Assembly (NCBI GenBank): GCA_963827435.1
Contig: CAWHAU010000020.1
Coordinates: 89,999 to 153,998 of the forward strand
Length of the DNA stretch: 64,000 nucleotides
DNA from: an uncultured Actinomycetota bacterium
GTDB lineage: Bacteria; Actinomycetota; Actinomycetes; Propionibacteriales; Nocardioidaceae
Direction: 5' to 3'
The notes under the pieces were generated by a model, which saw only the letters and a program-made list of their open reading frames with translations, made no database searches and was not told the origin of the DNA. A program made the translations under genes and the position numbers. Positions 56,752-60,616 of this stretch are shown piece after piece (position 1 is the stretch's first letter; every line of letters begins with the position of its first letter).

Positions 56752-57402
56752 GTGGCTGAGCAGCACCGGGACCCGGCGCGTCGACGCATCGGCGTCATGG
56801 GCGGCACGTTCGACCCCATCCACCACGGTCACCTCGTCGCCGCCAGCGAGGTCCAGGCCTGGTACGACCTCGACGAGGTCGTCTTCGTGCCGACCGGGCA
56901 GCCGTGGCAGAAGCAGGAGCGGGTGGTCTCCCCGGCGGAGGACCGCTACCTCATGACGGTCATCGCGACGGCCTCGAACCCCCGGTTCTGGGTCTCCCGC
57001 GTGGACATCGACCGGGACGGTCCGACGTACACCATCGACACGCTGCGCGACCTCCGCAAGGAGCTCCCGGACGCCGACCTGTTCTTCATCACCGGCGCCG
57101 ACGCCCTCAGCGACATCTTCACCTGGCGCGACGCCGACGAGCTGTTCGACCTCGCGCACTTCGTGGGCTGCACCCGGCCGGGCTTCACGATGGACCACTC
57201 GACGCTGAGCGGGATGCCCGAGGACAAGGTCACGATCATCGAGATCCCCGCGCTGGCCATCTCCTCGACCGACTGCCGCAAGCGCCGCATGCGGGGTGAG
57301 CCCGTGTGGTACCTCGTCCCCGACGGGGTCGTGCAGTACATCACCAAGTACGCCCTCTACACCCCCGAGAAACCCACCTCGAAGCTAGGACCGACACCAT
57401 GA
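56752..57402 (+). CDS. nadD: Nicotinate-nucleotide adenylyltransferase
   Basis: [25 protein letters not shown] and ISSTDCR motifs. Confidence 0.96.
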
Positions 57403-57779
57403 CCGCCACCGACCGGGCCCTCGAGCTCGTCCGCACCGCCGCCCAGGCCGCGTCGGACAAGCTCGCCGAGAACATCGTGGCCTTCGACGTGTCCGACCAG
57501 CTGGTCATCACCGACGCGTTCCTGCTGGCCTCCGCGCCCAACGACCGCCAGGTCAAGGCGATCGTCGACGCGATCGAGGACGGCCTGCGCGAGATCGGCG
57601 CCAAGCCCGTACGTCGCGAGGGGGAGCGCGACGGCCGGTGGGTGCTCATCGACTACGCCGACATCGTCGTGCACGTGCAGCACGAGGAGGAGCGGTCGTT
57701 CTACGCCCTCGAGCGGCTCTGGCGCGACTGCCCGCTGATCGCCCTGCCGGACACGGTCACCTCCGGCCGCGACCGGTGA
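57399..57779 (+). CDS. rsfS: Ribosome silencing factor
   Basis: [28 protein letters not shown] and [10 protein letters not shown] motifs. Confidence 0.95.
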
Positions 57780-58435
57780 TCTCCGGCGAGAGCCGGCGCC
57801 TGGTCCTGCTCCGGCACGGCCGCACCGCCTGGAACGACTCCGGGCGGGCCCAGGGCCACGCCGACATCGAGCTCGACGAGGTCGGCCACCGGCAGGCGGC
57901 CGCCGCCGCGCCCGCGCTCGCCGCGCTGCGGCCGAGCGCCCTGTGGACCTCCGACCTGGCGAGGGCCCGGCAGACCTGTGCGTACGTCGAGCGCGCCACC
58001 GGTCTCGCCGCCAAGGTCGACGAGCGGCTCCGGGAGTACGACGTCGGCGCCCGGCAGGGCCTGGACACCGCGCAGTTCCGCGAGCGCTTCCCCGAGGCAT
58101 TCGAGTCCTGGGCGTGTGGCGACGAGGAGCACCTGGTCCCCGGCGCCGAGTCGACGTCTGACGTCCTGCGCCGGATGGTGCCGGCGCTCCGCGAGTTCCT
58201 GGCATCCCTGGACGCAGGCGAGACCGGCATCGTGGTCACCCACGGCGCCTCGCTGAAGGACGCGATGTTCGACCTGCTCGGCTGGTCGCAGCAGCAGGAG
58301 CCGTCGCTGCGGGGCATGGACAACTGCGCATGGGCGGTCCTGGTCGAGCACCCCACCCTCGATCGGCTGCGGCTCGCGACGTACAACCAGCAGGTCACCG
58401 GCCCCGATTTCGCATCCGCGGAGGGCGTTGGATAA
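57776..58435 (+). CDS. Histidine phosphatase (phosphoglycerate mutase family, GpgP-like position)
   Basis: LLRHGRTAWN, QGHADIEL, SDLARA.QT, LRE, GAES and VTHG motifs. Confidence 0.9.
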   Translation: MISGESRRLVLLRHGRTAWNDSGRAQGHADIELDEVGHRQAAAAAPALAALRPSALWTSDLARARQTCAYVERATGLAAKVDERLREYDVGARQGLDTAQFRERFPEAFESWACGDEEHLVPGAESTSDVLRRMVPALREFLASLDAGETGIVVTHGASLKDAMFDLLGWSQQQEPSLRGMDNCAWAVLVEHPTLDRLRLATYNQQVTGPDFASAEGVG

Positions 58436-58464: not shown

Positions 58465-58540
58465 GGGGCTGTGGCGCAGCTGGTAGCGCACCTCCATGGC
58501 ATGGAGGGGGTCAGGGGTTCGAGTCCCCTCAGCTCCACCA
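58465..58540 (+). tRNA. tRNA-Ala(GGC)
   Basis: 76-nt cloverleaf with G3:U70, CCTCC-ATGGCAT-GGAGG anticodon arm and encoded CCA; TAAGAT -10 element at 58433-58438. Confidence 0.97.
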
Positions 58541-58979
58541 GATCGACGACAGGCCGGTTCCCGATGCTGGGGGCCGGCCTTCGTGCTGCGTGGGCGCAGC
58601 TGGTAGCGGCTCCGTCATCTCCGGCCATGGCATGGAGGGGGTCAGGGGTTCGAGTCCCCTCAGCTCCACCAGAAGAACGATCGACAGGCCGGTTCCCGAG
58701 GCGGGGGCCGGCCTTCGTGCTGCGTGGGCGCAGCTGGTAGCGGCTCCGTCATCTCCGGCCATGGCATGGAGGGGGTCAGGGGTTCGAGTCCCCTCAGCTC
58801 CACCAGATCGACACGGCCGGTTCCCGGGTTGGGGGCCGGCCTTCGTGCTGCGTGGGCGCAGCTGGTAGCGGCTCCGTCAGCTCCGGCCATGGCATGGAGG
58901 GGGTCAGGGGTTCGAGTCCCCTCAGCTCCACCAGATCGACACGGCCGGTTCCCGGGTCGGGGCCGGCCTCGCTGCGTGG
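58541..58979 (+). repeat. Tandem array of three tRNA-Ala-derived units plus a fourth hairpin
   Basis: The 47-nt tRNA 3' part is repeated exactly at 58625-58671, 58759-58805 and 58887-58933 (periods 131, 134, 128). Each copy is preceded by a GC hairpin and a D-arm remnant ggcgcagctggtagcg. Confidence 0.95.
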
Positions 58980-59241
58980 TGGATCCCGGTCCGGCTGGTC
59001 GAGCTTGTCGAGACACCCAGATCGGGCTCTGCGGAAGGCGGCCTCGACTGGCTCGACCCATGGTCGGTCACCGACGGGTCGCGCGGCTCTGGACGATCAG
59101 CGGTGTCTGCGGCCGCGGCGCTCTCGTCCGCGGGCAGAAGGTCTGGAAATTTCCGTTTACCGTCGAGGACGGAAAAGGTGCCCTACGCTGACCGTCGCCC
59201 GCCATCCTCGGCGGTCATCCACAAGCCTCTCGGGGGACCTC

Positions 59242-59832
59242 ATGACATCACGCCTGCGCCGCACATGTGCGGCAGCCATTCTCACCCTGCTTGCTGTCGG
59301 CCAGACCGGGCCGGCGAGCGCCCAGAGCCTGGTTGAGCGCGACGCCCACGCTGATGTTCGTTCGGCCCCCGTCGACGGAGACACGTCAGCCCCCGAGCCA
59401 ACCGTGACCGACGGCGACATCGAATCGTCGCTGCTCACCCACGGCCGTTACCGGATCGGGGTCCGCATCAAGTTCGCGGATCTGCAGAAGGCCGGGGACT
59501 ACCGGGGACATGTCGTCCAAGTGGTCACGAACGAAGGGGTGCACCGCGACGTCGTGCTGTCCGTGGGGCCGAACATGTGGCGCGGGATGTCCGAGATGGA
59601 CCGTCCCAGCGGTGCCAAGGTTCGGTGCGCGGTCCGGCACTCCATCGACTACACGAACCACGTCGTCACCGTCGGCTTCCCCCGCAGCTGCGTCAGCAAC
59701 CCCCGCTGGGTCCGGCTCGGGGTCGGCTCCTTCTCCGTGGCGGGCGAGACCGCCTACGCCGACGACGTTCTGCTCGCGAACAAGATCTACGACAACTCGC
59801 TCGCACTGTCCGCGAGGCTCAGGCGCGCCTGA
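59242..59832 (+). CDS. Secreted hypothetical protein
   Basis: Signal peptide MTSRLRRTCAAAILTLLAVGQTGPASA; beta-rich body with a Cys pair (VRCAVRHSIDY...FPRSCVSNPRWVR); less GC3-biased codon use than core genes. Confidence 0.75.
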   Translation: MTSRLRRTCAAAILTLLAVGQTGPASAQSLVERDAHADVRSAPVDGDTSAPEPTVTDGDIESSLLTHGRYRIGVRIKFADLQKAGDYRGHVVQVVTNEGVHRDVVLSVGPNMWRGMSEMDRPSGAKVRCAVRHSIDYTNHVVTVGFPRSCVSNPRWVRLGVGSFSVAGETAYADDVLLANKIYDNSLALSARLRRA

Positions 59833-60029
59833 GTGCTGCTCCGAAGCCCCGCCTGATGTCGTCGCGCTGACGGCGTGCGTGGCTGGCTGGCCTCCGTTGA
59901 GGTCGAGGCGGGGGCGTTTCCTCACCGTGACTCGGCACCGACGCGTCGAAGGCCGACAACCCGGGTGACGTGCTGGGGTGGAGGGTAGGTCGCCGCGGTG
60001 CGGGCCACACCCGGCGGCGCCACTCGCAC

Positions 60030-60097
60030 GTCAGGACGGCAGCAGCCCACCCAGATCGTGACAGCCCGGTTCCCACTCGGGCATCGGCCTTCGTGCT
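60030..60097 (+). repeat. Degenerate distal copy of the tRNA-Ala 3' end plus hairpin
   Basis: cagcccacccagatcgtgacagcccggttccc...tcggccttcgtgct aligns with cagctccaccagatcgacgacaggccggttccc...ccggccttcgtgct of the array. Confidence 0.6.
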
Positions 60098-60106
60098 CTC
60101 TGCCGA

Positions 60107-60616
60107 CTAGAACTGCTGCTGCGACGCGGTGTGCCCGGGGAGCTGGGCCAGCAGCTCGCGTCCGGCGGCGGCGTGCTTGTGCTCGACGAGCACCTCGTAG
60201 CGGGTCGCGACGATCCGGCTCACCGAGCTGAAGTCCCGCTGGCCGCGGGCGGCGGCGTACCCGACGAGCGCCCAGATGACGCCGAACAGCGCGCCGAACG
60301 CGACCGTCGACAGGATGATCGGCAGCGCATTGCCGGTGCCGAAGAAGGAGAAGATCAGGCCGATGAACAGGCCCATCCAGACACCGGAGAGCAGGCCGCC
60401 GATGGCGACCCGACCGGTGGTGAGCCGTCCGGTGACCCGCTCGACCTGCTTGAGCTCGGTGCCGACGATCATGCAGTTCTCGACCGGGAACTCGTGGTCG
60501 GAGAGGAAGTCGACGGCCCGCTGCGCCTGCTCGTACTTGTCGTAGACCCCCAGCGACTGCGGGAACTCCAGGGTGAGCCCGGACCGCAGTCCGCGGATGT
60601 TCTGCTGGCTGCTCAT
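60107..60616 (-). CDS. General stress protein (17M / YflT-like domain)
   Basis: SLGVYDKYEQAQRAVDFLSDHEFPVEN..IVGTELKQVERVTGRLT, two TM helices, then RDFSS...ATRYEVLVE. Confidence 0.82.
   Translation of the reverse strand: MSSQQNIRGLRSGLTLEFPQSLGVYDKYEQAQRAVDFLSDHEFPVENCMIVGTELKQVERVTGRLTTGRVAIGGLLSGVWMGLFIGLIFSFFGTGNALPIILSTVAFGALFGVIWALVGYAAARGQRDFSSVSRIVATRYEVLVEHKHAAAGRELLAQLPGHTASQQQF

What the first reader, a model, noticed from the sequence alone, without database searches (positions are those of the whole stretch)
58980..60097. Secreted-protein gene enclosed between the tRNA array and a distant degenerate tRNA-end/hairpin copy (integrase-less islet)
Seen: the fourth unit breaks off at about 58979. 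A roughly 1.1-kb segment with one secreted-protein gene (59242-59832) follows, then a diverged copy of cagctccacca-gatcg-hairpin-ccttcgtgct at 60043-60097. Weaker similarity to a unit 5' part is visible at 59945-59990 (tcga..ggccg..cccgggt..cgtgctg..ggtag). Inference: the most decayed copy is the most distal, as expected if it is the original tRNA end and material was added sequentially on the tRNA-proximal side. That would make a polarised, cassette-like array with one loaded cassette and three empty ones.
Basis: partly seen in the sequence, partly recalled or inferred. Interest (0 to 1): 0.65.

Follow-up and report, generated by a model that had tools for sequence, protein, structure and literature searches.

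The report
Single-gene islet in tRNA-Ala hotspot
A 1-kb stretch carrying one secreted-protein gene sits between a tRNA-Ala gene with its tandem tail copies and a real but decayed extra copy of that tail; this is an ordinary gene-swapping hotspot with no recombinase of its own, not a cassette system.

Summary
The main observation holds. The tandem array after tRNA-Ala(GGC) breaks off at 58979/58980. A unique 1.06-kb segment follows, with one real gene (59242-59832, a 196-aa secreted all-beta protein, dN/dS 0.22-0.40). At 60043-60097 lies a true diverged copy of the tRNA 3' end plus terminator hairpin (z = 10.3 against shuffles). The closest relative has an intact copy at the same place, against the stop codon of the convergent yflT-like gene. 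The weaker resemblance at 59945-59990 is not significant.

Across about 20 congeners (Nocardioides-like) the tRNA-Ala to yflT interval runs from 0.1 to 61 kb, and its content differs between lineages. No tyrosine or large serine recombinase lies in it. The secreted gene sits at this locus only in near relatives (97, 91 and 84% aa). The equally close G019 lineage carries different cargo, and the G007 lineage carries none or another gene.

Junction positions differ between lineages. Unit number varies between near-identical strains. In G019 the distal copy is intact while the middle copies are decayed.

Best reading: an accessory single-gene islet lodged inside a locally amplified tRNA-end/terminator array at an integrase-free hotspot. 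A polarised cassette array is not supported. Interest is low to moderate.

The parts
58465..58540 (+). tRNA-Ala(GGC), the intact gene at the head of the locus
   Evidence: ARAGORN. The same gene follows the His_Phos_1 gene in all 20 congeners fetched.
58541..58979 (+). Terminator hairpin of the tRNA, followed by three tandem units. Each unit is a D-arm fragment, a ~17-nt insert, the 46-nt anticodon-loop-to-CCA block and a hairpin. The last unit ends at 58979. This is context for the islet.
   Evidence: the repeat finder D1-D4 and TRF; alignment; hairpin energies -30 to -21 kcal/mol. Homologous units occur in G001, G016, G017, G019, G007, L053 and L066.
58980..60042 (.). The islet proper: 1063 nt of accessory DNA with no recombinase gene
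   Evidence: Unique in the genome apart from the REP-like repeat. G+C is 68.7% against 71.8% for the genome. No DNA match at this locus in G019, G007 or other congeners. Present in L055, L053 and L074.
58989..59060 (.). Inverted pair of a genus-wide dispersed REP-like repeat (GGTCGAGCYTGTCGAGAC), at the left edge of the islet
   Evidence: Inverted repeat I6, arms 58997-59012 and 59043-59058, 88% complementary. There are 37 copies in this genome against 1-3 for the control pattern, and up to 383 in congeners. The whole doublet resembles C3:390925-390984.
59184..59189 (+). Candidate -10 element TACGCT in a block conserved with L053/L055/L074; GGGGGA ribosome-binding site at 59232-59237 (inferred)
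   Evidence: Conserved upstream block in alignment A2 and in L074. The sigma-70 consensus scan found nothing, so this is an inference only.
59242..59832 (+). Cargo gene: a 196-aa secreted protein of an unnamed Nocardioidaceae family. Signal peptide residues 1-27, two invariant Cys, all-beta.
   Evidence: ORF list; 41 homologs, none named; invariant columns; no Pfam or NCBIfam hit; AF2 model pLDDT 73, all strands; no PDB fold match at E<1e-3; dN/dS 0.22-0.40; GC3 85% against 94-96% in neighbours.
59833..60042 (.). 3' non-coding part of the islet.
   Evidence: No significant similarity to the unit. A 113-nt stretch here (about 59956-60068, running on into the distal copy) is missing in L053, and nearly all of this part is missing in L074.
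60043..60097 (+). Distal decayed copy of the tRNA acceptor 3' strand plus terminator hairpin and its CCTTCGTGCT tail
   Evidence: 71% ungapped identity to 58795-58849; z = 10.3. Matches the position of the intact copy at L021:2057-2115 in G019. It no longer folds better than shuffles (-15.4 kcal/mol, z -0.13).
60107..60616 (-). Convergent yflT-like stress-protein gene, the conserved right anchor of the hotspot
   Evidence: Pfam PF11181 YflT, E = 1.8e-23. Present in the congeners fetched, 79-92% nt identity.

Best explanation
The segment 58980-60042 is a small accessory islet. It consists of a REP-like repeat doublet and one secreted-protein gene with its own upstream region. It lies in a genus-wide, recombinase-free hotspot of gene turnover between tRNA-Ala(GGC) and the convergent yflT-like gene.

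In this lineage the module 'tRNA 3' part + terminator hairpin' had been tandemly duplicated. Such arrays expand and contract by unequal homologous recombination or slippage. The cargo DNA came to lie inside that array, so the yflT-proximal module (60043-60097) was cut off from the others. It has since decayed and lost its hairpin, while the tRNA-proximal units stay similar to each other.

The cargo was acquired before the G000, L053 and L074 lineages split and has been inherited vertically since, with erosion of its 3' spacer. Its entry was not by a site-specific enzyme acting on the units. The likeliest route is illegitimate recombination, or replacement of the whole variable interval by homologous recombination in the conserved flanks.

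Shown: the anatomy, the homology of the distal copy, the variability of the interval, the absence of recombinases, and the different junctions. Inferred: the order of events and the route of entry.
For: - Hotspot. The tRNA-Ala to yflT interval is 0.1 kb (G007), 0.5 kb (G006, G002), about 0.8 kb (G019, G009, G014), 2-6 kb in many, about 14 kb (G003, G016) and 61 kb (G013). Cargo differs: a STAS-domain protein in G001, unnamed proteins in G006/L066, G009 and G019. The 5.5-kb content of G021 is shared only with G010 and G011.
- No recombinase. No PF00589 hit lies in the interval of any of 20 congeners. No PF07508 hit lies there in the 14 congeners tested.
- The distal copy is real and matches the position of an intact one in G019. 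Only the G000/L055/L053/G019 group has it.
- Junctions are not fixed: after the hairpin in G000/L055, before the 46-nt block in L053, inside the T arm in G019/L070.
- Arrays change on their own. L066 has at least 3 units and L067 has 1 in front of the same cargo. L070 has 1 and G019 has 3. L073 has tRNA, unit and hairpin directly against yflT with no cargo.
- The cargo is old and inherited. dS between G000 and L053 is 0.215 for the cargo against 0.129 for yflT. The cargo-to-yflT spacer is 274 nt (G000), 272 nt (L055), 121 nt (L053) and 55 nt (L074).
- Homologs elsewhere are not near tRNAs or the hairpin: 0 of 19 other loci, one exception.
Against: - The route of entry is not observed. No empty-site allele of the G000 lineage itself was found.
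- The right boundary of the variable DNA falls at about the same place (the acceptor 3' strand) in G000 and G019. A site-specific process would also predict this.
- Hairpin decay in this genome is monotonic with distance from the tRNA, as the accretion model predicts.
- A 33%-identical member of the same protein family sits at the same hotspot in G056 in the opposite orientation. That is unexpected for random insertion.
- The hairpin plus tail occurs base for base behind a quite different tRNA-Ala(GGC) in unrelated metagenome contigs. This hints that the module may be more than a local terminator.
- Only two recombinase families were screened.
Confidence: 0.6

Rival explanations
1. The islet is the eroded remnant of an element that integrated site-specifically into the 3' part of tRNA-Ala (a degenerate genomic island, CIME-like). 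The distal copy would be attR, the displaced original tRNA end. Later integrations or attL duplications would have added the proximal units (accretion).
For: - A direct repeat of the tRNA end brackets accessory DNA that close relatives lack.
- The perfect block in each unit runs from the anticodon loop to CCA, the usual extent of an att identity segment (own knowledge of tRNA-targeting integrases).
- Actinophage genomes carry attP-like matches to the tRNA-Ala T-arm/acceptor region.
- Decay increases with distance from the tRNA in this genome.
- Precedent for stacked partial tRNAs pushed into islands exists (bioRxiv 10.1101/2020.12.28.424599).
- This genome has a classical example at another tRNA-Ala, with integrase fragments and a 34-nt tRNA-end copy on contig C2.
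Against: - There is no integrase or fragment of one in the islet, or in this interval in 20 congeners.
- Only about 13 nt of tRNA survive in the distal copy, whereas about 45 nt of host downstream terminator are repeated.
- Junctions differ between lineages.
- No tRNA-end copy is present at the far end of the larger intervals of relatives.
- The G019 distal copy is intact while its middle units are decayed.
- No mobile element with the unit was found in phage, plasmid or IMG/VR collections.
Confidence: 0.2
2. The repeated tRNA-end/terminator modules act as a homology-based capture platform. Cargo flanked by two modules loops out by RecA-dependent recombination and re-enters a related chromosome by single crossover at a module. 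Small genes would then move as integrase-less 'cassettes'.
For: - Two sister lineages carry different cargo between a proximal and a distal module.
- Modules of 55-130 nt are conserved between species of the group.
- Unit number is polymorphic, so recombination between modules does occur.
Against: - In G019/L070 the two flanks are complementary parts of one unit (5' part up to the T arm, then the acceptor 3' strand plus hairpin), not direct repeats. That is an insertion, not a Campbell-type join.
- The G000 cargo has been inherited vertically with divergence like that of its flanks.
- The same cargo was not seen at another module or in another species.
Confidence: 0.1
3. The secreted-protein gene is ancestral at this locus. 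It was lost or replaced in other lineages, and the distal copy arose separately by duplication of the terminator.
For: - The gene is linked to yflT in four lineages down to 84% aa identity.
- A distant family member occupies the same hotspot in G056.
- The compositional deviation is mild.
Against: - The gene is absent from this locus in G019, G007, G021/G010/G011 and all other congeners examined. The nearest other homologs (71%, 65%, 52%) lie in unrelated contexts.
- The G056 gene is only 33% identical and is inverted.
Confidence: 0.08

Closest known systems
Chromosomal hotspots of horizontal gene transfer between conserved core genes (Oliveira et al. 2017, PMC5635113)
   Same: One interval between the same two conserved genes (tRNA-Ala/His_Phos_1 and yflT) holds different accessory genes in different genomes. 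It turns over quickly, lies next to a tRNA and contains no recognisable mobile-element gene.
   Different: Here the hotspot also contains a tandem array of tRNA-derived units, and the cargo lies inside that array, so it looks repeat-bounded.
tRNA-gene genomic islands with a displaced tRNA 3' fragment (Islander-type islands; tRNA-targeting tyrosine integrases)
   Same: An intact tRNA on one side, a direct repeat of the tRNA end on the other, and accessory DNA between them that relatives lack.
   Different: There is no integrase or remnant of one. The repeat is mostly terminator sequence outside the tRNA. Junction positions are not fixed.
Cis-mobilizable elements (CIMEs) and tandem accretion at att sites (reviewed in PMC5704250)
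   Same: A repeat-flanked segment without its own recombination module, lying next to further copies of the site.
   Different: No cognate integrase-bearing element using this site was found in the genus or in phage, plasmid and viral collections. Excision could not be tested.
Tycheposon-shaped islands of Prochlorococcus (bioRxiv 10.1101/2020.12.28.424599)
   Same: A tRNA-anchored island in which newer material lies nearest the tRNA and partial tRNAs mark older events.
   Different: Those islands contain active recombinase-bearing elements and scattered integrase fragments. None is seen here.
Integron gene cassettes
   Same: Small single-gene units separated by hairpin-forming sites, in a polar array.
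   Different: There is no intI-type integrase and no attI. The cargo is not bounded at constant positions of the hairpin, and it has its own conserved upstream region.

Membership tests
tRNA-integrated genomic island / integrative element | Integrase gene (tyrosine or serine recombinase), or a fragment of one, inside the island next to the tRNA | tested here: not met
   The islet holds one ORF with no Pfam or NCBIfam match. No PF00589 or PF07508 match lies in the tRNA-Ala to yflT interval of G000 or the congeners.
tRNA-integrated genomic island / integrative element | Island bounded by the intact tRNA and a direct repeat of the tRNA segment in which crossover occurs | tested here: inconclusive
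   A significant distal repeat exists. It keeps only about 13 nt of the tRNA end and about 45 nt of downstream terminator. The proximal boundary lies behind three extra units, not at the tRNA.
tRNA-integrated genomic island / integrative element | Same junction nucleotide for different occupants of the site | tested here: not met
   The left junction is after the hairpin in G000/L055, before the 46-nt block in L053 and inside the T arm in G019/L070.
CIME / accretion at an att site | A cognate integrase-bearing element that uses the same att site in the same or related genomes | tested here: not met
   None at this locus in 20 congeners. The unit is absent from phage, plasmid and IMG/VR collections. 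Genomes outside the sample were not tested.
CIME / accretion at an att site | Excision as a circle and an empty site when the integrase is supplied | not testable with these tools
Integron cassette array | IntI-type integrase with attI and Pc at the head of the array | tested here: not met
   Upstream genes are nadD, rsfS and a His_Phos_1 phosphatase. The window and contig C20 carry only weak partial PF00589 matches, 54 kb and more from this locus.
Integron cassette array | Each cassette ends in an attC-type site at a constant position | tested here: not met
   The 'empty' units are tRNA copies plus a terminator. The cargo boundaries vary.
HGT hotspot between core genes | The same flanking core genes with different accessory content across genomes of the clade | tested here: met
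   Interval length runs from 0.1 to 61 kb with unrelated content.
HGT hotspot between core genes | Cargo gene patchy in the clade and located elsewhere in other genomes | tested here: met
   The family occurs in 30 of 50 congeners at other loci. The best match is 52% identical, on another contig. Metagenome homologs of 71% and 65% lie in other contexts.

The most novel reading that the evidence does not exclude
The module 'tRNA-Ala 3' block + terminator hairpin' could be a recombination-prone landing pad that repeatedly captures single small genes in Nocardioides without any recombinase in cis. A trans-acting enzyme or RecA would act on the repeated modules, new modules would form next to the tRNA, and older ones would decay distally. 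Three observations leave this open:
- a second, distant member of the same secreted-protein family sits at the same hotspot in G056;
- the variable DNA ends at about the same point of the module in G000 and G019;
- an identical hairpin follows an unrelated tRNA-Ala(GGC) in other metagenome contigs.
Probability: 0.1. Interest if true: 0.65.

Novelty: new member of a known kind. Interest (0 to 1): 0.3.

Why it matters
The case shows how a repeat-bounded, integrase-less 'islet' can arise without a dedicated integration system. A tRNA-plus-terminator module is amplified in tandem at a gene-turnover hotspot, and cargo that lands inside the array then looks as if it were flanked by att sites. This is a caution for automated island callers that rely on tRNA-fragment repeats.

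It also marks the tRNA-Ala(GGC)/yflT interval as a natural variable site in Nocardioides-like actinobacteria, and it marks an unnamed, conserved secreted beta-protein family as accessory cargo. If the minority reading were right, it would be a simple, testable gene-capture site in a soil actinobacterium.

Tried and rejected
- Chance similarity of the distal copy: rejected (z = 10.3; intact copy at the same place in G019).
- Decayed unit at 59945-60042: rejected as not significant. The 113-nt indel against L053 can be explained by microhomology and does not rescue it.
- The 18-nt motif shared between the islet's left end and the G016 array looked at first like a conserved element terminus. It is a genus-wide dispersed REP-like repeat and says nothing about the islet's origin.
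- The G007 'stub' after its array looked like a decayed unit with a CCACCAG remnant. Comparison with L066 shows it is the 3' end of a deleted cargo gene.
- Function of the cargo: no Pfam or NCBIfam match and no PDB fold match at E<1e-3.
- Rfam found only tRNA/tmRNA-like partial hits on the units and nothing in the islet. The promoter/terminator consensus scan found nothing.
- Search for a mobile element carrying the unit: none in phage, plasmid or IMG/VR collections. In 400 genomes sampled across the class the hairpin pattern occurs only in this genome.
- Loci of other genomes could not be read inside Python, so comparisons used the alignment tools.

Full report
**Anatomy**

The window is contig C20:89999-153998 of a 4.57-Mb, 71.8% G+C actinobacterial assembly. 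Named homolog-bearing records are Nocardioidaceae MAGs and Nocardioides phosphati.

The gene order at the locus is:
- nadD (56752-57402);
- rsfS (57396-57779);
- a His_Phos_1 phosphatase (57779-58435);
- tRNA-Ala(GGC) (58465-58540);
- a tandem array;
- the segment in question;
- a convergent yflT-like gene (60107-60616, minus strand);
- an SDR gene and an epimerase gene.

After the tRNA come its terminator hairpin and three further units of 128-134 nt (TRF: 3.7 copies, 93% matches). Each unit has four parts: a 16-nt D-arm fragment, a ~17-nt insert, the exact 46-nt stretch from the anticodon loop to CCA, and the hairpin with a CCTTCGTGCTGCGTG tail.

**Checking the observation**

The ORF 59242-59832 is real.
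- It has a Sec signal peptide, with predicted cleavage after A27.
- It has 41 homologs with many invariant positions, including two cysteines.
- dN/dS is 0.22-0.40 among four orthologs.

The copy at 60043-60097 is real.
- It is 71% identical without gaps to 58795-58849.
- A gapped local alignment scores 42, against 16.2 +/- 2.5 for 2000 dinucleotide shuffles (z = 10.3).
- A profile of the four array copies searched over the whole genome gives it only E = 0.5, ranked behind a few ordinary GGCCGGTTCCC-type hairpins. The within-genome statistic alone would therefore be marginal.
- The comparative evidence settles it. In the closest genome, G019, a nearly perfect copy (CACCAGAGAACGATCGACAGGCCGGTTCCCGATGCGGGGGCCGGCCTTCGTGCTGCGTGG) lies at exactly the same place, a few bases from the yflT stop codon.
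- The near relatives L055 and L053 carry graded versions.

The second, weaker resemblance at 59945-59990 fails every test I ran (z from -1.0 to +0.7).

**What the islet contains**

- The left 70 nt (58989-59060) are an inverted pair of GGTCGAGCYTGTCGAGAC. This turned out to be a dispersed REP-like repeat of the genus. There are 37 copies here against 1-3 for a control pattern, and up to 383 copies in a congener. The doublet as a whole recurs on contig C3.
- Next comes an upstream region conserved with the orthologous contigs, including a TACGCT -10 candidate and a GGGGGA ribosome-binding site. This is inferred; the consensus scan found nothing.
- Then comes the gene, followed by about 210 nt of non-coding DNA.
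- Composition is mildly atypical. G+C is 68.7%, at the 14th percentile of same-sized windows. GC3 is 85% against 94-96% in the neighbours.
- The protein has no Pfam or NCBIfam family.
- The AlphaFold model (pLDDT 73) is an all-beta sandwich, and it has no PDB match at E<1e-3.

**Comparative evidence**

Both anchors are on one contig in 21 congeners. The distance from the tRNA to yflT ranges as follows:

| Interval | Genomes |
|---|---|
| about 0.1 kb | G007 |
| 0.5 kb | G006, G002 |
| about 0.8 kb | G019, G009, G014 |
| 2-6 kb | many |
| about 14 kb | G003, G016 |
| 61 kb | G013 |

The content is unrelated between lineages.
- G001 has a STAS-domain protein.
- G006 and L066 have an unnamed 155-aa protein.
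- G009 has a secreted Asn-rich protein.
- G019 has a small membrane protein.
- G021, G010 and G011 share a 5.5-kb block, which G013 carries at another locus.

No PF00589 integrase and no PF07508 recombinase falls inside any of these intervals. No second copy of the tRNA end lies at the far side of the larger ones. This is a recombinase-free hotspot of gene turnover.

**The cargo gene in relatives**

In 50 congeners the protein family is patchy (30 genomes). The best matches are 52% and 43% identical and lie on other contigs. None of 19 other homolog loci lies near a tRNA or carries the hairpin.

There is one exception. In G056 a 33%-identical member sits 130 nt behind the same tRNA-Ala(GGC), in the opposite orientation.

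Metagenome contigs give the near relatives.
- L055 (97% aa) has the same junctions as the window.
- L053 (91% aa) has tRNA, one unit, a truncated unit, the gene, one further decayed hairpin, then yflT.
- L074 (84% aa) has the gene 55 nt from yflT with no distal copy.
- Homologs at 71% and 65% lie beside unrelated genes.

yflT identities put G000, L053, L074 and G019 at roughly equal distances (92-95%). Cargo dS between G000 and L053 is 0.215, of the same order as yflT dS (0.129). The islet is therefore as old as this species group and is inherited vertically within it. G019, and its near twin L070, hold different DNA between the same anchors.

**Why the cassette model is not supported**

1. 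The left junction is not constant. In G000/L055 it comes after a complete unit and hairpin. In L053 it comes immediately before the 46-nt block. In G019/L070 it lies inside the T arm of a unit, whose acceptor 3' strand and hairpin resume on the far side of the insert. That is a plain interruption of one unit.
2. Unit number changes independently of cargo. L066 has at least three units and L067 has one in front of the same gene. L070 has one and G019 has three. L073 has tRNA, unit and hairpin directly against yflT. Unequal crossing-over or slippage between 128-nt repeats explains this.
3. In G019 the distal copy is intact (-32.5 kcal/mol) and differs by one base from the proximal copy, while the middle units are the decayed ones.
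4. The repeated module extends about 45 nt beyond the tRNA. This is expected of a tandem duplication of tRNA plus terminator, not of an att core.
5. No mobile element carrying the unit exists in the phage, plasmid or IMG/VR collections.

- In this genome hairpin stability falls steadily from the tRNA outward: -30, -30.5, -26.5, -21.1, then -15.4 kcal/mol for the distal copy, which no longer folds better than shuffles.
- The variable DNA ends at about the same point of the module, the acceptor 3' strand, in G000 and G019.
- Stacked partial tRNAs pushed away from the tRNA are known from tycheposon islands (10.1101/2020.12.28.424599) and from accretion of CIMEs (PMC5704250).

I therefore keep a degenerate site-specific element as the main rival (0.2) and a homology-driven capture platform as the novel minority reading (0.1).

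**Verdict**

The finding is a real, small, integrase-less accessory islet. Its distal boundary repeat is genuine. Its kind is known: a tRNA-adjacent hotspot with repeat-like borders. The particular twist is that the cargo lies inside a locally amplified tRNA-end/terminator array, and this twist explains the borders without invoking a cassette mechanism.

Noticed in passing
window 58989-59060; also 36 other sites in G000 (e.g. C3:390932-391069, C13:90365-90495): A dispersed REP-like repeat, consensus ccgggtGGTCGAGCCTGTCGAGACCAC. It often occurs as inverted pairs or short tandem runs. There are 37 copies in this genome and 3 to 383 in congeners, against 0-4 for the control pattern. It also sits directly behind the tRNA in G016 and at the cargo junction in L053.
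   Followed up: partly
L046:1463-2056 (G056), tRNA-Ala(GGC) at L046:2126-2199: A 33%-identical member of the same secreted-protein family occupies the same tRNA-Ala hotspot in another congener. It lies 130 nt behind the tRNA but on the opposite strand.
   Followed up: partly
L069:1023-1055, L071:346-378, L072:343-375: Metagenome contigs with a clearly different tRNA-Ala(GGC) sequence carry, about 20 nt after it, a hairpin plus tail identical (same stem and TTCGTGC tail; in L072 also the same loop) to the G007/L066-type one. None of 400 genomes sampled across the class has it. The cause could be deep conservation or horizontal spread of the module; this is unexplained.
   Followed up: partly
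L066:120-205 and 256-341; L067:8775-8860; L068:4-89; L073:3458-3543: ARAGORN calls the array units of the G007-like lineage 86-nt tRNA-like genes with a four-base anticodon (ccgg or ctgg). There the unit keeps tRNA positions 4-25 intact. The units of the window are not called.
   Followed up: no
L066 versus L067 (sister metagenome samples); L070 versus L021 (G019): Unit copy number differs (at least 3 against 1, and 1 against 3) between near-identical loci with the same downstream cargo junction. The array is therefore polymorphic on short time scales.
   Followed up: partly
G000:C2:62552-66026 (outside the window): A second tRNA-Ala gene is followed by tyrosine-integrase fragments (one with two in-frame stops) and a 34-nt copy of the tRNA 3' end 2.9 kb away. 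This is a classical decayed tRNA island in the same genome and a useful contrast to the islet studied.
   Followed up: no
L022:640-760 (G007) versus L066:900-1010: The short 'stub' between the G007 array and yflT is the 3' end of the 155-aa cargo gene that L066 and G006 still carry. G007 and L073 have lost that gene by two different deletions.
   Followed up: yes
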